Virus record (IMG/VR): IMGVR_UViG_2671180547_000002
Origin: a virus
Lineage: Duplodnaviria; Heunggongvirae; Uroviricota; Caudoviricetes
Direction: 5' to 3' (one strand)
Length of the DNA stretch: 25,078 nucleotides
The notes beneath the pieces were generated by a model. That model searched no databases and had not been told where the DNA came from. It worked only from the letters and a program-made list of their open reading frames with translations. Each line of letters opens with the position of its first letter. The stretch's first letter is position 1. The translations under genes were made by a program, and so were the position numbers. Shown here piece after piece: positions 1 through 19,504 of this stretch.

Positions 1-83
1 AGGGACAGCTGATAGAAACAGAAGCCACTGGAGCACCTCAAAAACACCATCATACACTAAATCAGTAAGTTGGCAGCATCACC
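1..83 (-). mobile_element. IS1: IS1 terminal fragment: left end with terminal inverted repeat and the start of insA, element continues off the left edge
   Basis: Reverse complement of 1..83 reads GGTGATGCTGCCAACTTACTGAT...CCAGTGGCTTCTGTTTCTATCAGCTGTCCCT, which I recall as the IS1 left end (also present in Tn9-derived vectors); the inverted repeat is at 61..83 and the insA start (GTG, translating ASVSISCP) at about 26..28 on the minus strand. Confidence 0.75.
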
Positions 84-402
84 AGCCTTCTTGAGGCTAC
101 CACCTGTTTTCAGGTGTCATTCAGACGTGATTTGCCCCAGATTGGGAAAGCACGCTTTTTTCTCAGCTATCGTCCTCTTATTTTGCCGTTACATTTCTTT
201 TTGCATTCTAATGATTAATTTACAATAATAATATCGGTAATTATTGAGTAATAATAAATTAATTATTGCAAATGTAATTTAATTCCATCTTCGCGTTATA
301 TTCCAATCTTTAATCTCCGCATGGAACAAGTTGCATGCGTGACTATATTAAGACGACTTATAACCACCAAAACATTTGCTTTGCAAGCAAAAACAGTGAC
401 CA

Positions 403-431
403 TTGACTCTAAGAAAATTCCGATCTATTGT
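403..431 (+). promoter_or_regulatory. Candidate sigma70 promoter in the AT-rich island
   Basis: TTGACT at 403..408, a 17-bp spacer, then TATTGT at 426..431; the whole region is AT-rich so chance matches are likely. Confidence 0.25.
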
Positions 432-465
432 TAGGGTCATCAAAGTTACTTAACAGTATTCCGAA

Positions 466-567
466 ATGAAAATACAAAGCAAGCTAATTGTCTTATTAAA
501 CATTATTATTGCATTTATATTATTTGAGCTTTTAGCTCAAAAATTTGGTTTGAGTACATTATTTTAA
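466..567 (+). CDS. Hypothetical small hydrophobic peptide (33 aa)
   Basis: ATG at 466 to TAA at 565..567 encodes MKIQSKLIVLLNIIIAFILFELLAQKFGLSTLF; it sits between the candidate promoter and the terminator at 717..750 but has no clear Shine-Dalgarno. Confidence 0.2.
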   Translation: MKIQSKLIVLLNIIIAFILFELLAQKFGLSTLF

Positions 568-716
568 AGCAAGATAAACAATATCGGGCACTCTAGTTTT
601 TATAATTAACAATTAAACGTCCATAAAATGTTATTTACTTTTCTTCGCTATTGTCATATCTTAATATAGTGGCTTACGCCACTCTACTTTCATCACATTT
701 TGTACGTTTATGTACT

Positions 717-750
717 CGCCATGAAGCTCTTTCATGGCGATTTTTTATTC
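717..750 (+). terminator. Rho-independent terminator, plus strand
   Basis: Perfect 9-bp stem CGCCATGAA (717..725) / TTCATGGCG (731..739) with loop GCTCT, followed by ATTTTTTATTC; on the minus strand the hairpin is not followed by a U-tract. Confidence 0.5.
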
Positions 751-832
751 TTAATCCAAGAACATACTCCCTACCTATAGCAAAATCACTTTTTTAACAA
801 AAGAATAACGTATTTAGGTAATCATTACGAAT

Positions 833-1414
833 TTACCCTATAGGTGCTACTGGCCATTCAATATCCGGTGCAGTTGATGTATCAACACGGTTCAGCAACA
901 CCCGATACTTTTTCCAAGCTTCCAGCAACAAGGTTTCTTTCTCCGTTGCGATCTCCAGATCCACAGCATCCTGAAGCGGCGCTATATGCTCACTGGCTAC
1001 CTGCATCAGGCTGTTTTTTGTTTCTTCCGCCTCCCGGATCCGGAACAGTTTTTCTGCTTCCGTATCCTTCACCCAGGCTGTGCCGTTCCACTTCTGAAAC
1101 TCCCCTTCCGGGGATAACCAGGTGACATTTTCCGGTAATGAGCCGAGTTCAGAAATAAATAACGCGTCGCCGGAAGCCACGTCATAAACCGTTTTACCCC
1201 GATGATCTTCAACGAGATGCCACGATGACTCATCACTGTTGAAAACAGCCACGAAACCAGCCGGAATATCTGGCGGTGCAATATCGGTACTGTTTGCAGG
1301 CAGACCTGTATGAGGCGGAATATATGCGTCACCTTCACCAATAAATTCATTAGTTCCGGCCAGCAGGTTATAAATTTTTATGGTCCGTGCTTGTTCACTC
1401 ATTCTGAATGCCAT
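833..1414 (-). CDS. tfa: Tail fiber assembly protein Tfa
   Basis: 193-aa ORF beginning [44 protein letters not shown], near-identical to lambda Tfa; its ATG shares one base with the stf stop (TAATG). Confidence 0.93.
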
Positions 1415-4400
1415 TATGCGAGCCTCACAATATAGTTAAATGCGATGTTTTTGACGGTGTTTTCCGCGTTACCAGCAGCGTTAACGGTGATGGTGTGTCC
1501 ATGTGAACCAATCGCAACAGAGTGCGTATGAGCACCAATACCGACAGTATGCGCGTGTGCACCCGCAGATGCTGCTGTGCCGGACAGTGAGTGTGTATGG
1601 TTTCCTTCTGAAGATGATTTACCTACCCATTGGGAGGTGCCACTGGTTAATGAGCCACTGATACCAACCTGATTAGTCCCGCTAACTTGAGTACTCCCTG
1701 CCGGAAACATTCCAGTAGGTTGACTCCCGCTATTCGTTCTGGGCCCAGTCTGACTATGTTGGTGGGCCCCAGCTGAACTTGTAGAGCCGCTCAGACTGTG
1801 CGTATGCGCCCCGGTGTTATTCGTGGATTTAGTGCCGTAATCAAACGACGATGTGGTTTTCGTCCCCAAATCCGTACTGGATGCGCTGGCGCTGTGGGTG
1901 TGCGATTTAATGCCATCCTGTTCCTGAGACAATACGGCACGACCACTGGCGGGCTTGCCCTTAATCGTCCAGCCACGCATATCAGGGATCACGCCTGACG
2001 GATAAGCGGCTGCAAGTTTCGGGTAAGCAGATTTGTCAAAAGTCTGCCCCTGCATCAGGGCATAACCAGACGGAACGGTATCTGATGGCCACGGGATTGG
2101 TGCACCGACTGGATAAAACTCTGCAGGAGGATGAGCCGAGGTGTAAAGCTGCGCCCACGGCGACCAGTTTGCGTCGGTCGTATCCCGTCGTGAACGAATA
2201 AATGCCGGAGCATGAGCACCGCTTGTACCACTCCAGCCGATGAGTAACTCACCTTCGCCAACGGCTGTCATCCCTTTCAGGTGAATGATATTTCCATACG
2301 CTGTTGGATATCCGTTGTTATACACCTCGTATAACTCAAGACCTGCTGCCCCCTGCGTATTGTCTGTCAGCGCGGCTACCCGACCTTTTGAAGCCAGATT
2401 AACTGATGATACTGCTGTTCCACCTGACGGTAGCGCCCCGATCTCTGATGCCGTTGGCTTATTTCTGGAGTTATAGTCCCTTCGCCAGCCAGGTGAATAA
2501 TCTGTTCCGTGATTAATATAGGTAAACTGGGCGTTGGTTGTTCCGCCACCGCTGGATGTGGTCGGAGTGGTAATGCGGATCGTCATCGCTGACTTTATCC
2601 CCATTACTTCAATGACAGCTCCGGCGAGATGAATATTACCGCAGCCAGTATCAGTAATGATTTTATTATTGCCATAAGACCAGGAACCCTTGCACATCCA
2701 GTATGGATGGTTAAATGCTCCCTGAGAATCCAGCCACTCGATAAACTGTGCAGTCGTCCAGTTTCCTGTTGTTGTGCTTACTGACCCACCGAAGGCACGG
2801 CAGGCACCAATATTTTTCGTAAAGGTGTCTTTGCCAGGGATATCCGCACCGTTCTGATCTTTCTGCAGACGTTTCTCAGCATTGTCATTGGCTGCTTTTA
2901 CTGCCTTTGGCGTTGCCGCCAGCGTTTCAGACGTGCTGTTGGTCGCGCTGCTTAGCTGGATTATCCCTTTCTGTGCTGTCGTTGCATCCTGTGCGGTGTA
3001 TTTCCCGTTAGCCAGGTCATACGCGGCCTTAACGGCTTTTGGTGTTGCCGCCAGTGACTCGGAAGTGCTGTTAGTCGCACTACTGAGCTGTACTATCCCC
3101 TTTTTCGTCGTGCTCGCATCCTCAAGCGCCACGGCGGATGCAATATCCTCTGCCCGTTTTGCCGCTGTCTCAGCGCGCGTTGCTGCAGATTCCGCCGTAC
3201 TTTTGCTCTGAGCTGCTGCCGTCGCACTACCAGCAGCCTCTGTCGCCTTCGTGGATGCCGTCGTGGCGCTGCCCTTCGCTGCTGACGCCTGTCTGGTCGC
3301 CTCATCTTTTGAAGCAGACGCCGATGATGCCGATGACGCCGCCGAACTGGCGGACGATGCGGCAGCCGTTTTTGAGGATTCTGCACGGGTTTCCGACGCT
3401 TTCGCGTTCGTTTCGGATGTCTTCGCTGCGGAAGCTGACCTCGCTGCTGCCGTGGCCTGCTCAGTGGCTTCGCCAGCCTTCGTTGTGGCTGTTGAAGCGG
3501 ATGATGCGGCGCTTTCTGCCGATTTTCCGGCGGCGGTGGCACTGGCTGAGGCCTGCCCGGCACTTGTTGACGCGGCGCTGGCAGACGACGCAGCCGCTGT
3601 TTTTGAGCCTGCCGCAGCTGAGGCACTCTGTCCCGCTGCCGTTTCAGAAGACCTGGCGTTCGTCTCGGACGTTTTGGCCGCCTTCGCAGAATTTGCAGCC
3701 GCCGTCGCCGAGGAAGCTGCGCTACTGGCGCTTGATGATGCGTTCGTTTCTGATGATTTTGCCGCCTCTTTTGAAGCCGACGCATCCCGGGCTGAGGTGG
3801 CAGCTTCTGACGCTTTCGTGGTCGCGGTGGATGCAGAAGTGGCTGCTGATTGTTGTGACGCTGCCGCATTCGTTTCTAACGTTTTCGCCGCACCGGCACT
3901 GGTAGCCGCCGCGCTTTTTGAGGACTCTGCAGCGGCAGCACTTTTTGAGGCTTCAGTGGCCTTTGTTGATGCCGTTCCTGCGCTGGAAGACGCTGACTGA
4001 GCCGACGAAGCGGCCTGTCCGGCTGACGTGCTGGCTGCACGTGCTGAATCTGCAGCATCAGTCGCATGGGTTGCCGCCTCACGGGCTGATGTGCTGGCAT
4101 CGCTGGCTGATTTCTTCGCGGCTGCCGTGTTCTGTGCCACCGCGGACGCGTTACGCGCCACCTCTTCCACCATCAGCTCAAAACGGCGCAGTGCCTCCGG
4201 ACGGGCATCATCCTCCGTCATGGCACCGAGAAAATCATTCAGCGTACCGGGTCGGGAATCTTCATACACGGTGATGGTCCCGGCATGTGACGGCGGGAAT
4301 CCTTCCACCAACAGAATAACGCTGTACTGACCGTACTCAACGTCCATGCTGTAACGCCCGGCTTCATCCGGATTTTCTGAGGCCAGCGTGTTCACCACCA

Positions 4401-4497
4401 CCGTGGTGCTGTTACGTTTTGCTTTCAGCTGGATTGTGCAGTTCTGTACCGGTTTTCCTGTGCCGTCTTTCAGTACACCTGAAATCTTTACTGCCAT
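1414..4497 (-). CDS. stf: Side tail fiber protein Stf, long mosaic form (1027 aa)
   Basis: N-terminus [26 protein letters not shown] matches lambda Stf; a long Ala/Ser/Thr-rich low-complexity centre follows, then a C-terminus with repeated His motifs (GAHTHS, GAHQHS, GAHAHT, GSHGHT) ending [18 protein letters not shown]. The ATG at 4495..4497 follows GGGGTG; the track's GTG at 4503 is probably not the start. Confidence 0.9.
2890..3135 (-). repeat. Imperfect tandem duplication (about 120-bp unit) inside stf
   Basis: Two adjacent DNA units encode [27 protein letters not shown] and [27 protein letters not shown]; lambda Stf as I recall it has one copy. Confidence 0.7.
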
Positions 4498-4561: not shown

Positions 4562-4656
4562 TCAGAATTTATAACCGACACCCACGATGAAACCGTCAGT
4601 GCGCCAGAGACGTGTTGCTGTGGCGACCGTCATCACTTCCGGTCAGCACATCGTGC
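4562..4656 (-). pseudogene. lom: lom 3' remnant (Ail/Lom/PagC outer-membrane protein family), frameshifted and truncated by a gap
   Basis: Minus-strand translation ends WRTDGFIVGVGYKF-stop, the lambda Lom C-terminus; just upstream, HDVLTGSDDGRHSNTSLA matches lambda Lom in a different frame, implying loss of about 26 codons plus a frameshift. The rest of the gene falls in the N-run 4657..4707. Confidence 0.7.
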
Positions 4657-4707
4657 NNNNNNNNNNNNNNNNNNNNNNNNNNNNNNNNNNNNNNNNNNNN
4701 NNNNNNN
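4657..4707. other. Assembly gap (N-run) within the lom region
   Basis: 51 Ns; at least about 400 nt of lom N-terminal coding sequence would have to lie here, so the true length is unknown. Confidence 0.9.
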
Positions 4708-4728
4708 TTTATTGGGGTTATAAATATT

Positions 4729-7700
4729 TCAACGAATACTGATGCCGGAAGCCGCTTTTTTGGTCACAATCACCGTACAGTCGGTGATATTGCCTGCCCC
4801 CTGATTGCCTTTCTGGAAAATCTTAAACTCCAGAGTGACGCTACCACCACCACTAGGCATATCAATAACTGCACTGTAACTACCGGGAATGGCACCTTTA
4901 GTTTCTCTGGATGCGATTAATACGCCGTTTTTGCGAACTTCAAAACCATAACCCGTGTATCGCGTGCCTCCTGGGTTATTTCCGCTCCCCGGATCGTCAT
5001 ACGCTATACCGTTAAAAATAATGGGCGGAATAATAATCTGGCGGTCAAAGTTATGATCATCGCTTATGGTGACTGTAACCGTCCCGTTTGGTGTTTCCGT
5101 GTTACCCCACGTACCAGCCTGTTTCGGAAATGATTTGGATACAGCTTTAACGAAGTCACCTCTGACCTGAGTCGCCTCCAGCATGCCCTTAATCGTACAG
5201 TTTTCATTTACCGTGACATTGTTGAGCGTCCCGGCGTTCGCATTCACACTGCCACTGATATCCGCATTTTTAGCGGTCAGCTTTCCGTCCGGAGTCAGGG
5301 AAAATGCCGATGGATTTCCACCGCTGGTAATGGTGGGGGCCGTCAGGCGTTTCAGGAACACGTCGTTCATGAATATCTGATCGCCCTGACCAACAAACAT
5401 CGGTTTTGTGTTGCCATTCGCAGGATTAACCATCGCAATCCTGTCCGCCGCCAGCAGCACCTGACTCTGCATGCCGTCAGGGGTGTTCTCAATACCGGCA
5501 CCAATACCCGCGATATAAAGGCGTCCGTCCTGCATCTGCTGCAGCTTCACAGCCCACATGCTGTTCAGGTTATTATTTGTATCAACCTGAACCTTCTGTA
5601 TCTGCTGAATTGCCGCACTCTGGTCTTCCAGTTTCTTATTGACGGTCTGCGTGATTTCATTGCTGACATCCGTAATGGACGTCCTGATTTCAGCCAGGTC
5701 AGGCGCAAGCTGACCGTTATCAATCTGCGTCCACAGCTCCTGAGCCAGATGGGTTTTCCCTATCTCGCCTTTGAAAAAATCCAGATAACCGGATGCATCA
5801 TCACTCGGCTGACCAACAGCCTCCACGAATGCCGATTTGCCAACGGTGTTCACACTGCGGATATAAAAGTAATAATCATGGCCCGGTTTGATATTGATAC
5901 TGGCGGCTATCCAGTACAGCGCCGTGCCAAGATAGCGTGCTGTGGTTTCAACCTGCCTGATATCCGCAATCCGCTTTTCCGAGAACCAGAACTCAAACTG
6001 TACCGTCGGATCATAAACCGCAAGATGCGGCGTGGCGGTTATCTGAAAATAGCCCGGCGTCAGCTCAATCCGCGACAGCGCTGCCGGTGCGGCAATCCGG
6101 AACGATACCGACGCCGGATCGCCCTGCTGCCCCCACGCATTTACTGCCCGGACTGTCAGCCTGTAGTTCCCCAGCGCCAGTTGTGTGAAGCGGTAAGTGG
6201 TTTCCGTCGTCCGGGCCGTGCTGACCAGCCGCTCACTGCCGTCATCCGCTGCCACGGTCAGGCGAAGCATAAAGCTCACCCCCTTCACCACCTTCGGCGT
6301 GTCCCAGCGCGCCAGCACCTGANNNNNNNNNNNNNNNNNNNNNNNNNNNNNNNNNNNNNNNNNNNNNNNNNNNNNNNNNNNNNNNNNNNNNNNNNNNNNN
6401 NNNNNNNNNNNNNNNNNNNNNNNNNNNNNNNNNNNNNNNNNNNNNNNNNNNNNNNNNNNNNNNNNNNNNNNNNNNNNNNNNNNNNNNNNNNNNNNNNNNN
6501 NNNNNNNNNNNNNNNNNNNNNNNNNNNNNNNNNNNNNNNNNNNTCAGGTGCTGCACCGCTGGCGGCGTGACACCATTCACCGTGCCGCTCTGGTCGCCGT
6601 CAAAGTGCGCCCCGTTATCCACGATGGCTTCTTTTTCCGGCACATGCTGCACGGCGGTGATGGCATACGTGCCGTCGTCGTTCTCACGGATACTCACGCA
6701 GCGGAACAGGCGCTGGCGCAACGTCGGCAGCTTCAGCCCCCACACGCTGTATTCAGCAACACCGTCAGGAACACGGCTCACTTTTACCTTCACGCCGTCG
6801 GTGACGGACTGGACCTCCACGCTGACCGGATTCCCCTGCCCGTCAACCAGGCTTATCAGCGTGGTGCCGGAGGATGGCAGCGTGATTTCACGGTCGAGCG
6901 TCAGCGTCCGGGTCTGGCTGTTCACCGCCAGCACGCGCCCGCCGGTGCGGATACCGGCATAGTCATCATCGCAGATTTCAATGACATCGCCCGGTACATG
7001 ACGAAGCCCTTCAGCACCCACGCTGAAATCCACGGTCTGCGTCTCCAGCAGTTCCGTTTTAATCAGCCACAGCCCGGCGCGGTGTGCCTGCCCCCGGCTG
7101 GTACAGCCAAAGGCATCCATCTTCGTGACGTTACGACCGTAACGGACAATGGCCTGCGTATCCTCCACAAGCTCTGTCGCCGTCTCCCAGCCGTTATCCG
7201 GGTCAATCCAGTTCACCTCAACGGCATTATGGCGGTCTTTCAGGGCGCTGAAACTGTAGCGGAACGGCGCGCCATCATCCGGCATCACCACATTACTGCG
7301 GTTATAGGCCCACACCTTATCCGACTGTCGGTCCTGCACGAACGTCAGCGTCTGCCCGTTCCATACCGGCATACAGCGCATCGCCGAGCAGAAATCACTG
7401 AGCACATCCCACGCCTTGCGCTGTGTGGTCAGCCAGGCATTACAGGTGATGCGCGGCTCCGTGCTGCCAAAGCCGTCCGGCACCGACTGGTCACAGTACT
7501 GGCCGATGACATACAGCGCCCATTTATCCACATCTGCCGCACCAAGACGTTTCCCCATGCCATAGCGCGGATGGGTCAGCATATCCCACAGACACCAGGC
7601 CATGTTGTTGCTGTATGCCGGTTTTAACGTTCCGTCCCAGATACCGCTGTATTGCCGCGTCTGCGGATTATAGTTCGACGGCACCTGCAGAATGCGCCCG

Positions 7701-8416
7701 CGAAGATGATAATTACGGCTCACCTGCTGGCTGCCGAACTGCTCCGAATCCACCTGTACGCCGACCAGTGCCGTGTTCGGGTAGCACTGTTTCACATCGA
7801 TGATTTCGGTGTATGACGACCAGAGCGTTTTGTTCTGCAGCTGGTCTGTGGTGCTGTCCGGCGTCATTCTGCGCATCCGGATATTAAACGGGCGCGGCGG
7901 CAGGTTATCCACCACCACCGAGGCCAGATACTGCGAGGTGGTTTTGCCCTTAATGGTGATGTCTTTTTCCGTCACCCAGCCACCGTTACGCTGTATCTGA
8001 ACCAGCAGGCGAACTTCAGACGGATTCCTGTCTCCCTTTGAGGTGGTTTCCACCAGTGCCTGTACACCGAAGGTAAAACGCAGTCGGTCAATGTTTGCCG
8101 ACGTGATGGTCCGGGTGATCGGCGTGTCATATTTCACTTCCGTACCCAGCACCGTCTCGGAGCCGGAGGATTCAAATCCCTCCGGCGGTGACTGCTCCTG
8201 CTCACCTGCCCGGAACACCACCGTGACGCCGGAGATGTTGGTATTCCCCTCACTGTCCAGCACCGGCGTACTGTTCAGCAGCACGCTTTTTAATCCATCC
8301 ACCGGACCTTCAACCGGCCCTTCGCTGATGGCATCGATCACACTCAGCAGCTGCGTGGACTTCAGGTTGTCCTTCGCTTCGCGCGGGGTATGCCCCTTAC
8401 TGCTGCCTTTACCCAT
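4729..8416 (-). CDS. J: Tail tip / host specificity protein J, interrupted by an assembly gap; C-terminal domain not lambda-like
   Basis: N-terminal segment (6544..8416) begins [34 protein letters not shown] and matches lambda J; the segment 4729..6318 matches the J fibronectin-like region ([15 protein letters not shown]...), then diverges and ends [10 protein letters not shown]. The two segments are in different frames across the N-run. Confidence 0.9.
6323..6543. other. Assembly gap (N-run) inside J
   Basis: 221 Ns; the flanking J segments are in different frames and lambda has only about 13 codons between the flanking motifs, so the run length is arbitrary. Confidence 0.9.
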
Positions 8417-10822: not shown

Positions 10823-13380
10823 CGTCCACCTCCGGAGAACAGGCCACCATCACGCATCTGTGTCTGAATTTCATCACGGGCACCCTTGCGGGCCATGTCA
10901 TACACGGCCTTCATCATCTGTGGACCTGGCAGACCATTCGTACCGTCGTTCTGAATCACCACGTGATTGTTCTGATTAAAATTAATGCCTTCAGCCCGCC
11001 GCATCTGCGCCGGACTTCCGGCACCGCCCACATAACCACCTTCCGCATAGCCGCGCATCAGCCGGTAGAGATTCCCCACGCCAATCCGGCTGGTTGCCTC
11101 CTTCGTGAAGACAAATTCACCACGGTGAACAATCCCCGCTGGCTCATATTTGCCGCCGGTTCCCGTAAATCCCCCGGTTGCAAAATGGAATTTCACCGCA
11201 GCGGCCTGAATGGCTGTACCACCTGACGCGGATGCGCCGCCACCAACAGCCCCGCCAATGGCGCTGCCGATACTCCCGACAATCCCCACCATTGCCTGCT
11301 TAAGCAGAATTTCTGTCATCATGGACAGCACGGAGCGGGTGAAGCTGCGCCAGTTCTGTTCACTGCCGGTCAGCATCGCCGCCATATTCTGTGCAATACC
11401 ATCAAAGGTCTGCGTGGCTGCACTTTTAACCTGTGACATACTGTCCGTGGCGCTCTCTTCCCACTCACTCCAGCCGGACTTCAGGCCTGCCATCCAGCTC
11501 CCGCGAAGCTGGTCTTCAGCCGCCCAGGTCTTTTTCTGCTCTGACATGACGTTATTCAGCGCCAGAGGATTATCGCCATACTGTTCCTTCAGGCGCTGTT
11601 CCGTGGCTTCCCGCGCTGCCTGCCGGTCAGTCAGCCCCCGGTTTTTCGCATCAATGGCTGCCCGTTTTGCCCGTTGCTGCTGTGCGAATTTATCCGCCTG
11701 CTGCGCCAGCGCATTCAGGTGCTCCTGATACGTAACCTTGTCACCAAGTGCAGCCAGCTGGCGTTTGTACTCCAGCGTCTCGTCTTTATGCGCCAGCAGG
11801 GATTTCTCCTGTGCGGACAGCTGGCGACGTTGTGCCGCCTCCTCCAGTACCGCGAACTGACTTTCTGCCTTCCACAAATCCCGGCGCTGCTGGCTGATTT
11901 TCTCATTCGCTCCGGCATGCTTCTCCAGCGTCCGGAGTTCTGCCTGAAGCGTCAGCAGGGCCGCATGAGCACTGTCTTCCTGACGATCGCCCGCATACAC
12001 CTTCACGCCGGACTGTTTCGGCTTTTTCAGCGTCGCTTCATAATCCTTTTTCGCCGCCGCCATCAGCGTGTTGTAATCTGCCTGCAGGATTTTTCCGTCT
12101 TTCAGTGCCTTGTTCAGTTCTTCCTGACGGGCGGTATATTTCTCCAGCGGCGTCTGCAGCCGTTCGTAAGCCTTCTGCGCCTCTTCGGTATATTTCAGCC
12201 GTGACGCTTCGGTATCGCTCTGCTGCTGCGCATTTTTGTCCTGTTGACGCTGTTGATCTACCCTCTTTTGGGCTGCATCCCGCTCCAGGCGTTTTTTTTC
12301 ACGATCATCCCAGTAACGCGCCCGTGCTTCATCGTTAACGAAATAATCATCCTTGCGCAGATTCCAGATGTCGTCTGCTTTCTTAAACGCAGCCTCTGCC
12401 TTAATCAGCATCTCCTGCGCGGTATCAGGACGACCAATATCCAGCACCGCATCCCACATGGATTTGAATGCACGTGCAGTCCTGTCTGCCCAGGTCTCCA
12501 GCGTGCCCATGTTCTCTTTCAGGCGGCGGGTCTGGTCATCAAACCCTTTCGTTGCGGCCTCGTTCGCCGCCTGCAATGCCCCGGCTTCATCGCCGGAACG
12601 CTGCAACTGAGCAACATACGCAATCTGCTCCGCCGTCACGTTATGGAACTGGCGTGCCATCGCCGTCAGCCCCGACGTCGGGTCTGTGGTCAGCTTCCCG
12701 AAGGCTTCAGCGACCTTGTCCACCTCCACGCCGGATGCATAGGAGAAACGCGCCACACTCTGGCTGATGGACGCAATCTGAGCCTCACCGCTTACCCCCG
12801 CCTTAACCAGTGCGCTGAGTGACTCGCTGGTCTGGTTAAACGTCAGCCCTGCCGCCTGCCCGGCTCTGGACAGGACCAGCATACGATCTGCCGTCAGTCC
12901 CGCCTGATTACCGGAAAGGACCAGCGTTTTGTTGAAATCGGACAGGGTTGAGTTGCCCTGATACCAGGCATACGCCAGCGCACCGGTCGCCACCGCCAGC
13001 GAGGTGGCCCCCACCATCGGCAGGGTGATCGCGCCGGCAAGCCCCCTGAACATGGGGATCATCCCGCCGAAGGAGTCCTTAACCTGACCACCCTGTTGCA
13101 GCAGGATCAGCCAGGGATTCTGCCCCCCTGCAAGCTGCGTGGCCACGTCGGTGAACTGTGCAGGCAGCATACGCATGGCGGCTTTATACTGCCCGACGGA
13201 AATCCCCGCTTTCTGTGCAGCCAGCGCCTGTCGGCTCAGCGACTGTTCAACGACTGCCGCTGTTTTTTTCGCATCACTTTCCGTACCGGAAAAATGACGC
13301 CTGACTCTGGCCATCTGCTCGTCAAATCTGGCCGCATCCAGACTCAAATCAACGACCAGATCGCCTACCGGTTCAGCCAT
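10819..13380 (-). CDS. H: Tail tape measure protein H
   Basis: 853-aa ORF MAEPVGDLVVDLSLDAARFDEQMARVRRHFSG, same length as lambda gpH, with a Gly-rich C-terminal region. Confidence 0.95.
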   Translation of the reverse strand: MAEPVGDLVVDLSLDAARFDEQMARVRRHFSGTESDAKKTAAVVEQSLSRQALAAQKAGISVGQYKAAMRMLPAQFTDVATQLAGGQNPWLILLQQGGQVKDSFGGMIPMFRGLAGAITLPMVGATSLAVATGALAYAWYQGNSTLSDFNKTLVLSGNQAGLTADRMLVLSRAGQAAGLTFNQTSESLSALVKAGVSGEAQIASISQSVARFSYASGVEVDKVAEAFGKLTTDPTSGLTAMARQFHNVTAEQIAYVAQLQRSGDEAGALQAANEAATKGFDDQTRRLKENMGTLETWADRTARAFKSMWDAVLDIGRPDTAQEMLIKAEAAFKKADDIWNLRKDDYFVNDEARARYWDDREKKRLERDAAQKRVDQQRQQDKNAQQQSDTEASRLKYTEEAQKAYERLQTPLEKYTARQEELNKALKDGKILQADYNTLMAAAKKDYEATLKKPKQSGVKVYAGDRQEDSAHAALLTLQAELRTLEKHAGANEKISQQRRDLWKAESQFAVLEEAAQRRQLSAQEKSLLAHKDETLEYKRQLAALGDKVTYQEHLNALAQQADKFAQQQRAKRAAIDAKNRGLTDRQAAREATEQRLKEQYGDNPLALNNVMSEQKKTWAAEDQLRGSWMAGLKSGWSEWEESATDSMSQVKSAATQTFDGIAQNMAAMLTGSEQNWRSFTRSVLSMMTEILLKQAMVGIVGSIGSAIGGAVGGGASASGGTAIQAAAVKFHFATGGFTGTGGKYEPAGIVHRGEFVFTKEATSRIGVGNLYRLMRGYAEGGYVGGAGSPAQMRRAEGINFNQNNHVVIQNDGTNGLPGPQMMKAVYDMARKGARDEIQTQMRDGGLFSGGGR

Positions 13381-14211
13381 ACCGGACTCCTCCTGCGATC
13401 CCTTCTGATACTGTCATCAGCATTACGTCATCCTCCGTCATGTCCGCCACATCCGGGGAAGCGGGGATAACTTCATTCCCGTCCGGGCCAAAGCGGACAC
13501 CTCCGGCAAGCCCTGCCGCTTTCTGCATCAGCACATCATCTTCAGGCTCTTCGTCAGCCTCGCGCCGGTTCAGCAGACTGAAATCCAGCGGATGCATCTC
13601 CGGATCGCTGAAAAACAGGCTGAGCACGGTGTACGTCAGCCCGGAAAAGTGCATATCCAGCAGAACATCATGAAAATAATGGGTACTGTAAAAGCGGTGC
13701 CAGTCGGCATACTCCGTGGATGACATCCCGGCAAGCATGGCGCGCCAGTCGGGTCGCCCCATCTCACGCGCCAGTTTCAGGGCAAAACTCAGCTCACCGT
13801 CGAACACTTTCCCGCAGAAACAGGCTCTGCAGGCCCGGCGTCCTCTGCCTGTTCAGGAGCATCATTCACCACAAACTCATACATACCGGACAGCCGGTAC
13901 ACCACGTTTTCAGCATGAGAAATTGCCTCTGTGGGCCAGGTGGTAAGCACTTCCTGCTCAATCTGTTTAACGGCTTCATTCATGGACGGCATCTGCGTCT
14001 TCTTCGGATGGTTATGCCACAGGGACATCGCAACCACAAAAGCGCCGGTTCTGATGGCGTCTTCCACAGTAAACTTCCGGTTGCTGTCTGACTCCGCCTG
14101 TTCTGCCTGCCGTTTCATCAGGTCGAGATGCTCAATACGCTGCAGGGCTGACAGTTCAGAAAGCGTGACGGTCACACCGTTATGTTCAAATGATTCGGTT
14201 TTCAGGAACAT
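13373..14211 (-). CDS. T: Tail assembly chaperone G-T fusion, made by a programmed -1 frameshift
   Basis: The G frame (14211 down to the stop at 13789) and the -1 T frame (open from 13807 down to 13373) overlap at the slippery heptamer G GGA AAG at 13807..13813 on the minus strand; the frame arithmetic is consistent with a -1 shift. Confidence 0.85.
13789..14211 (-). CDS. G: Tail assembly chaperone G
   Basis: 140-aa ORF MFLKTESFEHNGVTVTLSELSALQRIEHLDLMKRQ, matching lambda gpG; ends six codons after the slippery site. Confidence 0.93.
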   Translation of the reverse strand: MFLKTESFEHNGVTVTLSELSALQRIEHLDLMKRQAEQAESDSNRKFTVEDAIRTGAFVVAMSLWHNHPKKTQMPSMNEAVKQIEQEVLTTWPTEAISHAENVVYRLSGMYEFVVNDAPEQAEDAGPAEPVSAGKCSTVS

Positions 14212-14226
14212 CGCTGACTCTCCGGA

Positions 14227-14967
14227 TTAACTGGCGGTGACGTTGATTTCTGCAACCGCAGCAAACTCACCATTACCAGATACGACCGGAATGTTGACCT
14301 TGCCTGCAGCAACACCTTTCACGGTGATGGTCATACCACTGACCGACACGGTGGCTTTTGTTTTATCCGCAGACACCGCACGGAAGCTCTTGTCGGTTGC
14401 GCCATCCGGCTGGAATGCCACGGTCAGCGTGGTGCTCTGCCCTTTCACTACGGAAGCACTGGCGGGTGTCACCGTCATGCCGGTCGTCGCCGTCACCGTG
14501 CTGCGATCTTCTGCCATCGACGGACGTCCCACATTGGTGACCTTCACCGTGCGGGTAATCACCTCCTTCGCCGTCACCGCCTTACCGATACTGCTGACCC
14601 AGCCACGGAACACATCGACCGTGCCGTTCGGGAAGCGGATTTTATAGGCACGGGTATCACCTTCATTAAACCACGCCAGCAGCGCCTGCTGCCCCTGCTC
14701 TCCGGGCATCCACGCCAGCGTGAAGCTGGTATCTCCGGCAGATTTCTGCCCCTGCCCGGTCGCAGTCCAGTCTGCATCTTCATCATCGAGATAGCTGTCG
14801 TCATAGGACTCAGCGGTCAGTTCGCCGGGCGTCAGGTCTTTAACTTTTGCCAGACGCGACCAGTCAACGTCTGAAAGCGGGTTCGCATAAGGGTCACCGC
14901 TCCCCTTATAAACCCACAGGGTGGTCCCGGCACCTTTCACCGGCATTGTAGGATTTGGTACAGGCAT
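14227..14967 (-). CDS. V: Major tail tube protein V (with C-terminal Ig-like domain)
   Basis: Matches lambda gpV from [22 protein letters not shown] (246 aa); the track's extended start at 14997 overlaps U and is probably not used. Confidence 0.93.
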
Positions 14968-14974
14968 AGCGTCC

Positions 14975-15370
14975 TCACATTTCATAGATAATGACATAAG
15001 TCAGATCGGCTGAACTCCACAGGCCCGCATCATCGTCGCGCCGGTAGTCATAGCCGCTGGCCACCATACTGGTGATCAAATCTGACAGTGCCGGGATATC
15101 GCTCATCACAGGATAAATCCGGGACTCCATCCACGAATCCAGCTCTGAATCCGGCACCTGAGCAGGCAGGAAAACTTCAATATGCAGCTCCGCCTGCCAG
15201 GTATCGCTGTCCAGCTCTTCGCCCGTGTATTCAGCGCCGGTGAGATAAACGGCAATTGCCGGAAAATCTTCCTCATCAAAAACAGCGGGGCGACCATCAA
15301 AAAGCGTCGCCCCGGTGTCATGCTTCTCCAGTGCATCCAGTACGGCTGCACGGAGTTCAGTATGTTTCAT
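14975..15370 (-). CDS. U: Tail terminator protein U
   Basis: 131-aa [40 protein letters not shown], matching lambda gpU. Confidence 0.95.
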
Positions 15371-15945
15371 CGCTTTATTACCATTCTCAGTTGATGCTGC
15401 AGCGCATAGCCCAGCTCTTTCGGAAGACGTTCACGCCGTATCCGTTCAATATTCTGTTTAAACGCCGTGGTCAGCGGCACCGCCATCGGGATTTTCACCA
15501 CATCAATGGGGTAACGGTTTTTCCCGGCCACACGCTGCATAACATGCCACCGGCCGTTTTTCAGTTGCTGAATAAACGCGCCGGGAATACGACGGTTACC
15601 CACCACAAGCACGCTGCCGCCACCTTTCAGGGATGAACGCTGCCCCTTTTTATGACGCCTGCGGCGGGACAGGACAACCCGCGCATTACCCAGCTTGATT
15701 ACGGGCAAATCCCCCCGGTTAACTTTGATTCTGGCCTGCGGATTTTTGACCGTGGCCCTTTTCAGCCTGGCCCTTTCCTTTACCAGTTTCCGGCGTACCT
15801 TTGTCTCACGGGCAACCTGTGACGCAGACTGCGATATCGCGGATGAAGCAACGCGGTTAATGGCCATTGCGGCGGCACCGGGCACCGCCGTTTTGCTGAT
15901 ACGGCTGAGGTTTTCAACGGCCTGCTCAAGACCTTTTATGGCCAT
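15367..15945 (-). CDS. Z: Tail completion protein Z
   Basis: 192-aa ORF MAIKGLEQAVENLSRISKTAVPGAAAMAINRVASS, matching lambda gpZ. Confidence 0.95.
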   Translation of the reverse strand: MAIKGLEQAVENLSRISKTAVPGAAAMAINRVASSAISQSASQVARETKVRRKLVKERARLKRATVKNPQARIKVNRGDLPVIKLGNARVVLSRRRRHKKGQRSSLKGGGSVLVVGNRRIPGAFIQQLKNGRWHVMQRVAGKNRYPIDVVKIPMAVPLTTAFKQNIERIRRERLPKELGYALQHQLRMVIKR

Positions 15946-15956
15946 ACATCCCCCTT

Positions 15957-16310
15957 TCAGCGGCGACGGTTAACGGCAGGCGGTACGCCCCGTCCAAGCC
16001 AGAGATGACAACTTCCGCCATCATCCGGCGAAACCCGATCTACCCAGAAATTTTCCTCACCGATGGTCAGCGTGTCTCCACGCCGCAGCTGCCGCACCTC
16101 ATCAGTCCGGACAAACAGGGACGGGCTGGAGCCTTCAACGCGCACGCCCTGTCCGGCATAGCTGATATTTTCAGGGTCATCAAAAACACCACGTATCACC
16201 GCACCTGACTGCTCACCGGATGTCATGGTGGCTGACGTTCCCATGTACCCGCGTATCGTTTCATCGGCGCGGGCAATGGCAGCATCGAACAGGTTATCGA
16301 AATCAGCCAC
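15957..16310 (-). CDS. FII: Head-tail joining protein FII
   Basis: 117-aa ORF MADFDNLFDAAIARADETIRGYMGTSATMTSGEQ, matching lambda gpFII. Confidence 0.95.
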   Translation of the reverse strand: MADFDNLFDAAIARADETIRGYMGTSATMTSGEQSGAVIRGVFDDPENISYAGQGVRVEGSSPSLFVRTDEVRQLRRGDTLTIGEENFWVDRVSPDDGGSCHLWLGRGVPPAVNRRR

Positions 16311-16321
16311 AGCGCCTCCCG

Positions 16322-16720
16322 TTATTGCATTCTGGCCAGGCCGCGCTCTGTCATTTCGGCTGCCACACCGGCAGAGACACGAAACGCCGTTCCCGGCAGC
16401 ACAAATGCCACAGGTTTATCCCGCGTGGCGTGAAGTGCATCAGTATGCAGCGTCACCAGTGCCACGACCGTGACCAGTTCAGCCGTATCCTGAATCACGG
16501 TATCCGGCTGCGCTGATACCACCTCATTTTCATGCCCGGTCAGCACATTTTCCCGGCTGAGAGGGGTGTCCTGACCGGCAGTTTCATCCGTGTCATCAAG
16601 CTCTTCTTCCAGCTCTGCCACACGAAGCGCCAGTTCTTCTTTCGTTCCCGTCAAACTGACATCGCGGTTCAATTGCTCACCCAGCTCCTGAAGACGGGCA
16701 ATCAGTTCATCTTTCGTCAT
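16322..16720 (-). CDS. FI: DNA packaging protein FI
   Basis: Matches lambda gpFI from MTKDELIARLQELGEQLNRDVSLTGTKEEL (132 aa); GGAGGAG precedes the ATG at 16718..16720, so the track's upstream start at 16759 is probably not used. Confidence 0.92.
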   Translation of the reverse strand: MTKDELIARLQELGEQLNRDVSLTGTKEELALRVAELEEELDDTDETAGQDTPLSRENVLTGHENEVVSAQPDTVIQDTAELVTVVALVTLHTDALHATRDKPVAFVLPGTAFRVSAGVAAEMTERGLARMQ

Positions 16721-16761
16721 GAACTCCTCCACAGAGAGAAAATGGCCCCGAAGGGCCATGA

Positions 16762-17787
16762 TTACGCCAGTTGAACGGACACGAACTCATCAGGATCAGC
16801 CAGCAGCATCAGCGGTGCTGACTGAATCATGGTGAACTCACGCGCCGGATCGCCGGTGGTCACCCAGTTTTTCGGGTAACGGGCAGAAGCGTTAATGCCT
16901 TCGCGCTGTGCGTCCGCATCCTGAATGCAGCCATAGGTGCGCAGACCGCGAGCCTGAGTGTTCCCCAGCACCATCGTGTTGTCCGGCAGGAAGTTCTTTT
17001 TGACGCCGTTTTCCACGTACTGTCCGGAATACACGACGATGGCCACATCGCCATACATTCCCTTATAGGACACCGCTTTGCCCAGGTCTTTTACCGCTGT
17101 CTCCAGCTCGGAATGAGAGCCGCGACGGGTATCCAGCTTCTCCTTGACGGCTTTGAAGGAACGGAACAGCGCCCAGCCTTTCGGGTCAAACACGATGATA
17201 TTCACCACACCGCTGGCGTTCAGCGCGTAGGCTTCGATATCGTCGGTCGGGTCATACGTGGACTTGTCACGCTTGCTCCACTCCGTGACGCCGGACTGTG
17301 TGATGTTGTTCGCCGCACTGCGGCCCATATCCACCTCAACCGGATCGAAGGCTTCACCGGTCATGGTGTATTTGCCCTTGAGCACGGCAGAAACTGCCTG
17401 CATCTCTTCGACCTGAGCAATGGCCAGCTCTTCGTCACGCATGTTCTGCATGATGATGCGACGGCGGCGGTAAGCCGGGTCCGCCAGATTCTGCGGATCT
17501 TCATCCGGCAGGCGACGCAGGGTCATCTGCGGATTCACCTCATGCTTGGGTTTGACATATCCCGGCGTAAATTCAGAGGTGGAGCCGCCACGGGAACGGA
17601 TAACCTCACCGGAAACAATCGGCGAAACGTACAGCGCCATGTTTACCAGTCCCGGAATTTGTGAGAGATAGACTTTCTCCGTAGTGAAGGGATAGCTCTC
17701 ACGGAAAAAGAGACGCAGAAACAGCGGATCAAACTTAAATTTCTGCTCATTTGCCGCCAGCAGCTGGGCGGTTGTGTACATCGACAT
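16762..17787 (-). CDS. E: Major capsid protein E
   Basis: Matches lambda gpE from MSMYTTAQLLAANEQKFKFDPLFLRLFF (341 aa); the track's upstream start at 17814 is not lambda-like. Confidence 0.95.
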   Translation of the reverse strand: MSMYTTAQLLAANEQKFKFDPLFLRLFFRESYPFTTEKVYLSQIPGLVNMALYVSPIVSGEVIRSRGGSTSEFTPGYVKPKHEVNPQMTLRRLPDEDPQNLADPAYRRRRIIMQNMRDEELAIAQVEEMQAVSAVLKGKYTMTGEAFDPVEVDMGRSAANNITQSGVTEWSKRDKSTYDPTDDIEAYALNASGVVNIIVFDPKGWALFRSFKAVKEKLDTRRGSHSELETAVKDLGKAVSYKGMYGDVAIVVYSGQYVENGVKKNFLPDNTMVLGNTQARGLRTYGCIQDADAQREGINASARYPKNWVTTGDPAREFTMIQSAPLMLLADPDEFVSVQLA

Positions 17788-17842
17788 AAAAAAATCCCGT
17801 AAAAAAAGCCACACAGGCGGCCTTTAGTGATGAAGGGTAAAG

Positions 17843-18175
17843 TTAAACGATGCTGATTGCCGTTCCGGCAAACACGGTCCGTTTTTTCGTCTCGTCGCTG
17901 GCAGCCTCCGGCCAGAGCACATCCTCATAACGGAACGTGCCGGACTTGTAGAACGTCAGTGTGGTGCTGGTCTGGTCAGCAGCAACCGCAAGAATGCCAA
18001 CGGCAGCACCGTCGGTGGTGCCATCCCACGCAACCAGCTTACGGGTGGAGGTGTCCAGCATCAGCGGGGTCATTGCAGGCGCTTTCGCACTCAATCCGCC
18101 GGGCGCGGTTGCGGTATGAGCCGGGTCACTATTGCCCAGCGGCTGGTAATGGGTAAAGGTTTCTTTGCTCGTCAT
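17843..18175 (-). CDS. D: Capsid decoration protein D
   Basis: Matches lambda gpD from [41 protein letters not shown] (110 aa). Confidence 0.95.
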
Positions 18176-18184
18176 AAACATCCC

Positions 18185-18790
18185 TTACACTGGTGTGTTC
18201 AGCAAATCGTTAACGGCATCAGATGCCGGGTTACCTGCAGCCAGCGGTGCCGGTGCCCCCTGCATCAGACGATCCAGCGCAGTGTCACTGCGCGTCTGTG
18301 CACTCTGTGGTGCTGCGGCCAGAATACGGCGGGCCGTTTCCACGGTCATACCGGGGGTTTCGGCCAGCACGCGTGCCTGTTCTTCGCGTCCGTGAGCCTC
18401 CTCACAGTTGAGGATCCCCATAATGCGACTGTTTTCTGCCGCAACCGCTGCGGTGATCTGCGCGTTCACGTCCGGCTGCGCCGCGCTGGCGTTCTCGCCC
18501 TCCGTCGCTTGCACCACGCCAGTAACGTCAGCCTGCGAAGCAGTGGCTGAAACAGTTGTTGATTGAGTCTCTTTGGTCATTCGCCCTCCTGAGAGACGGG
18601 ATTTACGTGCATCCAGTGCATCACGCATGACGGTGATCGCATCGGTACTGTTAACAAGTTCATCAGCCAGTCCGGCATCAATGGCCTCCTGACCGCTGTA
18701 CACTGCAGCCTCGGTATCCAGCACAGCCTGCACGGACAGGCCGGTATATGCCGACACCTTCTGTGCAAACATCCGGCGGGTTGCATCCAT
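18185..18790 (-). CDS. nu3: Capsid scaffolding protein Nu3, nested in-frame in the 3' third of C
   Basis: In lambda, Nu3 is translated from an internal in-frame start in C; the corresponding Met (MDATRRMFAQKVSAYTGLSVQ) gives 201 aa to the shared stop. Placed by analogy only. Confidence 0.6.
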   Translation of the reverse strand: MDATRRMFAQKVSAYTGLSVQAVLDTEAAVYSGQEAIDAGLADELVNSTDAITVMRDALDARKSRLSGGRMTKETQSTTVSATASQADVTGVVQATEGENASAAQPDVNAQITAAVAAENSRIMGILNCEEAHGREEQARVLAETPGMTVETARRILAAAPQSAQTRSDTALDRLMQGAPAPLAAGNPASDAVNDLLNTPV

Positions 18791-19484
18791 CCGGGACTGC
18801 AATGTTTCCCGGACATCATCCGGTAGATGGCTGTAGGGGTTGCCATCCACCTTATGGCTGCCGCTGTAAATCAGCGTGATTTCCACGCCCTGTTTCTCCA
18901 GTGCAGCGCCGTAATTACTGTGAGCCATCATGACGCCGATGGAGCCTGTCCGGGCGGTCTGCGTGACCAGACGCCGGGAGGCGGCACTGGCAAGCAGCTG
19001 ACCTGCGCTGCAGTTCATGTCATTGGCCAGCGCCCATACCGGCTTTATGTCACGCACACGGGCGATGATGTCAGCGCAGTCAAATGCTCCCGCCACCATT
19101 CCGCCCGGTGTGTCCATATCGAGCAGAATGCCGTCCACCATCGGGTCGCTGGCAGCCTGTTGCAGACGGGCGATAATGCCGTTGTAACCGGTCATCCCCG
19201 AGTACGGCTGCAGCGCCCGCGTCCGGCTGACCAGCGTGCCGGACACCGGCAGCACGGCGATGCCGTTCATTACCTGATAACTGCGGGCCTGTCGTGGTCC
19301 GTCATCATCACCGGATAACGCCAGCGCCGCGGGTGCCTCTCCGGCAGTCAGGCTGTCGCCGGATACTGCATCCGTCAGGCAGCTGATCCCAAGCTGGCCT
19401 GCAAGCGCACAAAAGAAAACCCGCGCATAGGCGGGTTCAAGCATCAGCGGCTCATTAAAAGCCATGCTGGCAATATGCGGGAGA

Positions 19485-19504
<20 letters not shown>
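18185..19504 (-). CDS. C: Capsid assembly protease / minor capsid protein C
   Basis: 439 aa beginning (V/M)TAELRNLPHIASMAFNEPLMLEPAYARVFF from a GTG preceded by GGAGGAG; the start overlaps the 3' end of B in another frame, as in lambda. The track's longer ORF is upstream read-through. Confidence 0.92.

What the first reader, a model, noticed from the sequence alone, without database searches (positions are those of the whole stretch)
4729..5800. J has a non-lambda C-terminal receptor-binding module
J matches lambda through the N-terminal two-thirds and the fibronectin-like region, keeps one conserved block ([21 protein letters not shown]...[12 protein letters not shown]), then ends in about 130 residues ([20 protein letters not shown] ... 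[19 protein letters not shown]) unrelated to the lambda LamB-binding C-terminus as I recall it. In lambda the J C-terminus sets receptor specificity, so this phage probably uses a different receptor.
Basis: partly seen in the sequence, partly recalled or inferred. Interest (0 to 1): 0.5.

Follow-up and report, generated by a model that had tools for sequence, protein, structure and literature searches.

The report
Phage-434-type receptor tip on lambda J
The tail-tip protein J of this lambda-like E. coli prophage carries the well-known phage-434 version of the receptor-binding tip, which points to the porin OmpC rather than lambda's LamB as receptor; about 39% of complete E. coli genomes hold the same module, so the finding is real but ordinary.

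Summary
The quoted peptides are present on the minus strand, and the J C-terminus does differ from lambda. It is not "unrelated", though. The last 140 residues align to lambda J at 35% identity (E 3e-24), match Pfam PF12421 (J C-terminal receptor-binding domain, E 1e-25), and model with the same fold as solved J tips.

The module is the phage 434 host-range allele. It is 95% identical to 434 J over 140 residues with no gaps. The same DNA occurs in 2113 of 5426 complete E. coli genomes and in 74 phage records, many of them Stx-converting phages. OmpC is the predicted receptor; this was not tested.

J has a second non-lambda block at window ~5370-5830, covering the alpha-helical shaft and upper fibre. 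It is 28 residues longer than in lambda or 434, is found in 67% of complete E. coli genomes, and assorts independently of the tip.

The four indels against lambda fall at the four published J indel hot spots (lambda residues 1012, 1048/49, 1077/78, 1107).

Caveat: two N-runs (6323-6543 and 4657-4707) interrupt J and hide lom. They do not preserve length. Near-identical relatives read straight through both.

Verdict: already known, low interest.

The parts
6544..8416 (-). J gene, N-terminal 624 codons: the hub domains of the tail tip
   Evidence: This part is 94-99% identical to lambda J residues 1-624. It matches Pfam PF24801 FNIII-A_GpJ and PF13550 Phage-tail_3. It ends ...PPAVQHL, followed by the first base of the next codon.
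6323..6543 (.). Run of 221 N inside J (a mask or assembly gap, not biology)
   Evidence: Lambda, MB56 and the 99.6%-identical relatives L010, L013 and L016 have only 31 nt here, encoding TAEVTADSGEYQ. Because 221 and 31 leave different remainders on division by 3, the two J parts are out of frame in the window as given.
5773..6322 (-). J FNIII-1 and FNIII-2 (Ig-like) domains, lambda-type
   Evidence: Matches Pfam PF24421 Ig_J and PF24489 Ig_J_second. Identity to lambda J residues 638-817 is 90-100%.
5370..5830 (-). Second mosaic block: alpha-helical shaft plus upper central straight fibre, the 130-residue type (28 residues longer than in lambda or 434)
   Evidence: DNA identity to both lambda and 434 is 28-78% here, against 100% to E. 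coli MB56 gpJ. Protein identity to lambda is 13-53%, with a 28-residue insertion. Domain names follow PMC11101478. The block is present in 3613 of 5426 complete E. coli genomes and 67 phage records.
5191..5415 (-). Conserved lower central-straight-fibre block ([21 protein letters not shown]...[12 protein letters not shown]); likely the recombination joint between the two modules
   Evidence: Protein identity is 87-97% to both lambda and 434, and DNA identity is 77-98%. It lies within the Pfam PF09327 Phage_Tail_Tip match. That it serves as a recombination joint is inference from its position.
4732..5190 (-). Receptor-binding domain of the phage-434 (h434) type; the stop codon follows at 4729-4731
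   Evidence: Identity is 95% to 434 J over 140 residues with no gaps and 35% to lambda. Pfam PF12421 matches fragment residues 392-527, equal to window 4735-5142. The AF2 model's best Foldseek matches are 9wcb, 8xck, 9wca and 8xcj.
4657..4707 (.). Run of 51 N between the J stop and the lom remnant (mask or gap)
   Evidence: Relatives L010, L013 and L016 have 471 nt here. In MB56 and 434 an Ail/Lom gene lies between J and stf.
4562..4656 (-). Last ~95 nt of lom (ends ...WRTDGFIVGVGYKF*), the gene that normally follows J
   Evidence: Read directly from the sequence. The position matches the annotated Ail/Lom genes of 434 and MB56.
1414..4497 (-). Side tail fibre gene stf: full length and uninterrupted in the window, whereas in the lambda reference record it is annotated as two ORFs (orf-401, orf-314)
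   Evidence: ORF. Matches Pfam phage_tail_N, Phage_fiber_2 and Collar. The distal 233 residues are 70% identical to lambda orf-314.
833..1414 (-). Tail fibre assembly gene tfa
   Evidence: 93% identical to lambda orf-194. Matches Pfam PF02413 Caudo_TAP.

Best explanation
Window 4729-8416 (minus strand) is gene J, the central tail fibre or tip attachment protein, of a lambda-like E. coli prophage. It is a three-part mosaic:
- a lambda-type hub and FNIII region;
- a non-lambda, non-434 shaft and upper-fibre block that is 28 residues longer;
- a C-terminal receptor-binding domain of the phage-434 (h434) type.

Shown here: the domain architecture, the mosaic boundaries, 95% identity of the tip to 434 J, the same predicted fold as the solved lambda and A8 J tips, and the wide distribution of the module.

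Inferred by homology: the trimeric Ig-like tip docks through its variable loops onto the OmpC porin trimer instead of LamB. By analogy with the lambda-LamB structures, binding would spread the bottoms of the three domains, twist the fibre, flip the shaft and open the tail tip for DNA ejection.

The nine substitutions against 434 (seven within the last 140 residues) mostly lie in the indel-bearing variable segments. They may tune which OmpC alleles are accepted.
For: Architecture and context:
- The J fragments match the full set of gpJ Pfam domains.
- J sits downstream of the lambda-type tail genes H, M, L, K and I, and upstream of stf and tfa.

Mosaic boundaries come from the protein profile and the DNA profile.

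Identity of the tip:
- 133 of 140 residues match 434 J with no gaps, E 3e-100. Against lambda it is 51 of 145 aligned positions with 17 gaps.
- tblastn against phage records is bimodal: 74 records at 90% or more (434, 2851, cdtI, Stx1a/2a/2c/2d phages and others) and 169 below 60% (lambda 38%, phage 21 42%).

Fold: the AF2 model has mean pLDDT 74.8. Its top four Foldseek PDB matches are the A8 gpJ-OmpC complex 9wcb, lambda J 8xck and 8xcj, and 9wca, with query-normalised TM 0.71-0.72 and E about 1e-13. The next match is at E 2e-4.

Receptor of 434 is OmpC, and h434 confers OmpC use on lambda: PMC3509688, PMC11101478, PMC12502783.

Modularity:
- Both shaft types pair with the 434-type tip: 28 long and 32 short among the classifiable sequences (the 80 IMG/VR loci plus reference loci and the window).
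- The long shaft also pairs with phage-21-like tips.
- The four indels against lambda fall at lambda 1011/12, about 1043-49, 1077/78 and about 1107. These are the four natural indel hot spots of the J 'specificity region' in PMC6646904.

Variation within the 434 type: 11 of 15 variable domain positions fall in those four segments, against 6.5 expected (P 0.013).
Against: - No adsorption or infection data exist for this allele; receptor use rests on 95% identity to 434.
- Single or few J substitutions can add OmpC or OmpF use in phage 21 and lambda (PMC11336670, PMC6646904), so nine changes could matter.
- J is interrupted by an N-run and reads in two frames in the window as given. The segment 4708-6322 is flanked by N-runs on both sides, so its linkage to the rest of the prophage is not shown by continuous sequence.
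- The structure model comes from a shallow nine-sequence alignment of a monomer. It shows the fold but says nothing about the interface.
Confidence: 0.85

Rival explanations
1. The fold and family are the same, but the loop substitutions against 434 have shifted specificity. The tip would then recognise only certain OmpC alleles, or another porin such as OmpF, so its host range differs from 434's.
For: - Nine of 165 residues differ from 434. Seven of these lie in the Ig domain, and six of the seven fall in the indel-bearing variable segments.
- The natural gpJ tips A8 and 1A2 both use OmpC but accept different OmpC alleles (PMC11338833).
- One J mutation gives phage 21 OmpC use, and four give lambda OmpF use (PMC11336670, PMC6646904).
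Against: - Between the window and 434, 12 of the 21 differing codons are synonymous, and most amino-acid changes are conservative (V/I, S/A, N/D, Q/K).
- This exact tip sequence is shared by 11 IMG/VR contigs. Alleles at 95-99% are spread across phages that plate on K-12, ECOR13 and O157 hosts.
Confidence: 0.1
2. J here is not a working gene. It is either a frameshifted remnant of a decaying prophage or an assembly chimera in which the C-terminal piece comes from another prophage in the same genome.
For: - The two J parts are in different frames across the 221-N run.
- The piece 4708-6322 is bounded by N-runs on both sides.
- J-like sequence occurs at a median of 3 and up to 20 places per E. 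coli genome. That is the situation in which assemblers break and scaffolders misjoin.
Against: - The N-runs do not keep length: 221 N where relatives have 31 nt, and 51 N where they have 471 nt. The frame offset therefore carries no information.
- Contigs L010, L013 and L016 are 99-100% identical to the window on both sides of both runs and read straight through.
- MB56 has an intact 1165-residue gpJ with the same module combination.
- Neither J part contains an internal stop, and all neighbouring tail genes are intact.
Confidence: 0.04
3. One reading: a C-terminal module unrelated to lambda J, meaning a new kind of receptor-binding domain with an unknown receptor.
For: At DNA level nothing aligns with lambda downstream of about window 5185.
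Against: - Protein homology to lambda J is clear: E 3e-24 over the tip alone.
- It matches Pfam PF12421 and has the same fold as the solved tips.
- It is 95% identical to a tip known since the 1970s.
Confidence: 0.01

Closest known systems
Phage 434 J / h434 host-range determinant (UMO75286.1, record OL657226)
   Same: The last 140 residues are 95% identical with no gaps, and the last 165 differ at nine positions. DNA identity over the tip is 94.4%. The hub and FNIII region is the same lambda type. The literature gives 434's receptor as OmpC.
   Different: 434 has the lambda-type 102-residue shaft and upper-fibre block, whereas the window has the 130-residue type. Nine substitutions separate the tips, mostly in variable segments.
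Lambda J (NP_040600; PDB 8iyk, 8xck, 8xcj), a LamB binder
   Same: The domain order is the same: hub, FNIII-1/2, helical shaft, straight fibre, Ig-like tip. Identity is 90-100% up to residue 817 and 87-97% over residues 910-969. The tip fold is the same.
   Different: The tip is only 35% identical, with four indels at lambda 1012, about 1048, 1077/78 and about 1107. The shaft block is 13-53% identical and 28 residues shorter in lambda. Lambda's receptor is LamB.
E. coli MB56 prophage gpJ (WP_257181960.1, 1165 aa) and IMG/VR contigs L010, L013 and L016
   Same: MB56 gpJ has the same full module combination and is 90-100% identical per 30-residue window. L010, L013 and L016 are 99-100% identical in DNA across both N-run junctions.
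   Different: Only a few substitutions. These sequences are continuous where the window has N-runs.
A8 gpJ chimera tip (PDB 9wca; 9wcb in complex with OmpC of EDL933; PMC11338833)
   Same: It is a natural prophage J tip shown to use OmpC. It is the best sequence and fold match among solved structures: phmmer E 2e-82 over 253 residues and Foldseek TM 0.71.
   Different: The tip is only 44% identical, so it is a separate allele class. OmpC use has therefore arisen or been retained in several diverged J tip classes.
Other OmpC-using lambdoid J tips: phi330 (PMC12502783) and Gifsy-1 (PMC12312913)
   Same: These are J-type central fibres whose tips use OmpC. PMC12502783 reports that the lambda, 434 and phi330 tips share 35-40% pairwise identity and a common ancestor.
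   Different: They are different allele classes. They were not compared directly here.

Membership tests
Lambda gpJ tip attachment protein / central tail fibre | Domain series from hub to tip: FNIII-A_GpJ and Phage-tail_3, then Ig_J and Ig_J_second, then Phage_Tail_Tip, then Ig_GpJ_C | tested here: met
   All six Pfam families match above their curated cut-offs, in the expected order.
Lambda gpJ tip attachment protein / central tail fibre | Gene position: downstream of tape measure H and tail-tip genes M, L, K and I; upstream of lom, stf and tfa | tested here: met
   Pfam matches for TMP_2, Phage_min_tail, Phage_tail_L, JAB/NlpC_P60, Lambda_tail_I, phage_tail_N and Caudo_TAP fall in that order. 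A lom 3' remnant lies at 4562-4656.
Lambda gpJ tip attachment protein / central tail fibre | One uninterrupted ORF of about 1130-1165 codons | tested here: inconclusive
   A 221-N run splits the gene and offsets the frame. Relatives at 99-100% identity are continuous, with 31 nt at that site.
Lambda gpJ tip attachment protein / central tail fibre | Homotrimer that closes the tail tip and opens on receptor binding | not testable with these tools
   Only a monomer model of the tip was made.
Pfam PF12421 Ig_GpJ_C (J C-terminal receptor-binding domain) | Profile match above the gathering score, with the Ig-like beta-sandwich fold of solved J tips | tested here: met
   90.7 bits against a cut-off of 26.2, E 1.1e-25, covering the full profile length 1-134 of 135. 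The Foldseek top four are J tips at TM 0.71-0.72.
Phage-434-type (h434) J tip allele | Near-identity and gap-free alignment to the 434 J tip, clearly separated from other tip classes | tested here: met
   95% over 140 residues with 0 gaps. The tblastn distribution has nothing between 60% and 90%.
Phage-434-type (h434) J tip allele | Carries the characteristic indels relative to lambda at the four specificity-region hot spots (lambda 1012, 1048/49, 1077/78, 1107) | tested here: met
   The alignment was numbered. The hot spots are as defined in PMC6646904.
Phage-434-type (h434) J tip allele | OmpC-dependent, LamB-independent adsorption and infection | not testable with these tools
   Known for 434 itself from the literature (PMC3509688, PMC11101478, PMC12502783). 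No data exist for this allele.

The most novel reading that the evidence does not exclude
The substitutions that separate this allele from 434 are S32, Q36, A37, N47, I136, Q138 and G143 of the 165-residue tip fragment. Almost all lie in the indel-bearing variable segments. They may retune the tip to a different subset of OmpC alleles, or add a second porin. If so, the 434-type tips found in 39% of complete E. coli genomes would be a graded series of host-range variants rather than one specificity.
Probability: 0.15. Interest if true: 0.3.

Novelty: already known. Interest (0 to 1): 0.1.

Why it matters
It matters little as a discovery. The h434 host-range determinant and the modular, indel-marked 'specificity region' of J are textbook or published (PMC3509688, PMC6646904). 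An OmpC-bound J tip structure also exists (9wcb).

The practical value is in annotation. This prophage's J can be labelled as a 434-type, predicted OmpC-binding tip, rather than LamB-binding as the rest of the lambda-like tail would suggest. The ready-made panel of natural 434-type loop variants could be used to map OmpC-allele specificity for engineered lambda delivery particles.

Tried and rejected
- I looked for the sequence of the OmpC-specific gpJ chimera 1A2 in the supplements of PMC11338833, to see whether it is the 434 type. No sequence is held there. The follow-up preprint gives none either.
- I searched for receptor data on phages that carry this tip or this shaft. PMC12315714 has no OmpC or receptor data for lambdoid phages. 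The 2026 receptor-screen preprint does not cover lambdoid 434-type tips. A literature search for phi458 turned up only biofilm, virulence and unrelated titles, none on receptor use; I did not open these papers.
- I tried to find the window's source in genome contigs through the tip protein. It returned three loci and none is the window.
- I considered phage 21 as the source of the tip. That is rejected: phage 21 is 42% identical and uses LamB natively.
- I considered whether the N-runs hide a real insertion in J (221 N against 31 nt) or a lom deletion (51 N against 471 nt). That is rejected as uninformative, because the two runs err in opposite directions relative to 99.6%-identical relatives.
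- An early search of solved structures failed on a frame error and was repeated correctly.
- Plus-strand ORFs overlapping the region (4612-4920, 5183-5380, 5749-6570) were treated as antisense chance ORFs and not pursued.

Full report
**Context.** The window is the late (head and tail) region of a lambda-like prophage, read on the minus strand. ORF sizes and Pfam matches give tape measure H, then M, L, K, I, J, a lom remnant, stf and tfa. The ORF run upstream of H, from 13373 to 23731, has a lambda-like head-gene layout, but I did not check those ORFs against any family or against lambda. J starts at 8416 and stops at 4729-4731.

The window holds two runs of N, at 6323-6543 (221 N) and 4657-4707 (51 N). 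The first lies inside J. ORF listing therefore shows J as two pieces in different frames, 6242-8416 and 4729-6318.

**The N-runs are not biological.** Between ...AVQHL and LARWDTP..., lambda and E. coli MB56 gpJ both have 13 residues. That leaves 31 nt unaccounted for in the window, against 221 N.

Three IMG/VR contigs (L010, L013, L016) are 98.9-100% identical to the window on both sides of both runs. They have 31 nt at the first run and 471 nt at the second. One run is too long and the other too short, so neither keeps length, and the frame offset says nothing about the gene.

In 434 and MB56 an Ail/Lom gene lies between J and stf. In the window only its last ~95 nt survive, at 4562-4656.

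One caveat remains. The piece 4708-6322, which holds the whole finding, is bounded by N on both sides. Its linkage to the rest of the prophage rests on relatives, not on continuous sequence in this window.

**Checking the observation.** All four quoted peptides are present. Identity to lambda J in 30-residue windows:
- N-terminal 624 residues: 94-99% (104-residue windows).
- FNIII region up to lambda residue 817: 90-100%.
- Lambda residues 818-909: 13-53%, with a 28-residue insertion.
- Conserved block, lambda residues 910-969: 87-97%.
- Last ~165 residues: 23-60%.

DNA identity follows the same pattern, and nothing aligns with lambda downstream of about window 5185.

Calling the end 'unrelated' is not right. 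The last 140 residues alone align with lambda's at 35% identity, E 3e-24. They match Pfam PF12421, 'Tip attachment protein J, C-terminal receptor binding domain', over the whole profile at 90.7 bits against a cut-off of 26.2.

An AF2 model of the last 165 residues has mean pLDDT 74.8 and is all-beta. Its four best PDB matches are J tips: 9wcb, 8xck, 9wca and 8xcj, at TM 0.71-0.72 and E about 1e-13. The next match is nine orders of magnitude weaker.

**What the tip is.** Megablast of the last 522 nt finds 76 phage records at 90-99% identity. They include phage 434 (94.4%), phage 2851, cdtI, mEp332 and many Stx1a, Stx2a, Stx2c and Stx2d converting phages.

At protein level the tip is 133/140 identical to 434 J with no gaps. 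Over 165 residues there are nine differences. tblastn against all phage records is bimodal, with 74 records at 90% or more and 169 below 60%. Lambda is at 38%, phage 21 at 42% and Fels-1 at 46%. The 434 type is therefore a discrete allele class, and the window belongs to it.

The class is very common and confined to Escherichia and close relatives:
- It is in 2113 of 5426 complete E. coli genomes, at 2859 places.
- It gives 358 matches in IMG/VR, and 11 of the best 80 have a tip identical to the window's.
- Among one genome per species it is found only in E. coli, Escherichia sp. E1V33 and one 1350-bp contig of a 'Collinsella' MAG, which is surely misbinned.
- Protein clusters carrying it are named from E. 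coli, E. albertii and Shigella sonnei.

**Receptor.** Three papers state that 434 uses OmpC and that putting the 434 J or h434 allele into lambda switches it from LamB to OmpC (PMC3509688, PMC11101478, PMC12502783). PMC12502783 also notes that the tips of lambda, 434 and the OmpC-dependent phage phi330 share 35-40% pairwise identity and a common origin.

Natural prophage J tips grafted onto lambda (A8, 1A2) use OmpC with different OmpC-allele preferences (PMC11338833). The A8 tip has been solved bound to OmpC (9wcb) and is 44% identical to the window's tip. Phage 21, by contrast, uses LamB natively (PMC11336670).

By homology at 95% identity the predicted receptor here is OmpC. That is an inference, not a test.

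**Mechanism (inferred).** Domain names follow Ge and Wang (PMC11101478): hub domains, FNIII-1/2, alpha-helical shaft, central straight fibre, Ig-like receptor-binding domain with four bottom loops. In lambda, loop insertion into LamB spreads the bottoms of the three domains, compacts and twists the fibre, flips the shaft and opens the hub.

The window's J keeps every one of these parts, so the same mechanism is expected with OmpC as the trigger.

The four gaps in the window-lambda tip alignment fall at lambda 1011/12, about 1043-49, 1077/78 and about 1107. These are the four natural indel hot spots that Maddamsetti et al. described in the J 'specificity region' 960-1132. Residues 1012 and 1107 are the two residues required for lambda's laboratory shift to OmpF (PMC6646904).

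Within the 434 class, 11 of 15 variable domain positions fall in those four segments, against 6.5 expected (hypergeometric P 0.013). Six of the seven window-versus-434 substitutions in the domain do so as well (P 0.025). The sample is biased, because only the 80 loci closest to the window were kept.

Between the window and 434, 12 of the 21 differing codons are synonymous. That fits overall purifying selection with change concentrated in likely contact loops.

**The second mosaic block.** Window ~5370-5830 encodes the shaft and the top of the straight fibre. It is a 130-residue version, against 102 residues in lambda and 434. It is identical to MB56 gpJ and 28-78% identical in DNA to lambda and 434.

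It is the commoner form in nature, found in 3613 of 5426 complete E. coli genomes and 67 phage records. It pairs with 434-type tips (phi458, Ayreon, ev099, mEp332) and with phage-21-like tips (1H12, Lambda_ev066). Among the classifiable 434-type sequences (the 80 IMG/VR loci plus reference loci and the window), 28 have the long block and 32 the short one.

The modules therefore assort independently. The conserved block [10 protein letters not shown]...SGSVNAN between them is the obvious recombination joint, though that is inference. [quoted passage not shown]

**Comparison and verdict.** The gene is a member of the gpJ family: architecture and context were tested and met, while continuity of the ORF is inconclusive because of the N-run. 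Its tip is a member of the 434-type allele class on sequence criteria; the functional criterion could not be tested.

Nothing about it is new. The exact tip sequence is in 11 public viral contigs, and the full module combination is in annotated E. coli genomes. The host-range allele has been known for decades, its modular evolution is published, and structures exist for the LamB-binding and one OmpC-binding class.

The only open point is whether the loop substitutions among 434-type alleles change OmpC-allele preference. That is a modest question.

Noticed in passing
window 6323-6543 and 4657-4707: Two N-runs of 221 and 51 bases do not keep the length of what they replace. Relatives at 99.6% identity have 31 nt and 471 nt at those sites. 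The first run splits J into two frames. The second hides most of lom.
   Followed up: yes
window 4562-4656 (-): Only the last ~95 nt of an Ail/Lom-family gene are readable (ends ...GVGYKF*). A hairpin followed by a T-run comes next, before stf. The rest of the gene lies under the N-run.
   Followed up: partly
window 1414-4497 (-): The side tail fibre gene stf is full length (~1027 codons) and unbroken, whereas the lambda reference record annotates it as two ORFs (orf-401 and orf-314). Its distal 233 residues are 70% identical to lambda orf-314, with an indel-rich divergent stretch among the His-x-His repeats. Ur-lambda Stf binds OmpC (PMC12617516), so this phage may aim both fibres at OmpC. 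The Eligo engineers avoided that situation deliberately (PMC11338833).
   Followed up: partly
window 873-1071 (-), inside tfa: The only Rfam hit at gathering score in the window is RF02111 IS009, at 218 bits against a cut-off of 117. It lies within the tfa coding sequence.
   Followed up: no
window 5370-5830 (-): The 130-residue shaft and upper-fibre variant of J is commoner in E. coli than lambda's own 102-residue version (67% of complete genomes). None of the papers I read discusses it. In lambda this part flips and refolds on receptor binding, so a 28-residue longer shaft might change fibre length or triggering.
   Followed up: partly
L004 (JAGZNZ010000056.1, 1350 bp): A contig binned into a 'Collinsella sp.' MAG encodes an E. 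coli-type J tip that is 99% identical to the window's. This is almost certainly a binning contaminant.
   Followed up: no
window 1-830 and 23900-25078: Both ends of the window drop to 36-45% G+C, against 55-60% in the head and tail genes. Beyond Nu1 there are two plus-strand ORFs, 24120-24353 (77 aa) and 24396-24821 (141 aa). I did not examine them.
   Followed up: no
window 3093-4000, both strands: Long ORFs antisense to or out of frame with stf (258, 255 and 249 aa) lie over its Ala/Ser/Thr-rich repeat region, which is 59-60% G+C. They look like composition artefacts rather than genes.
   Followed up: no
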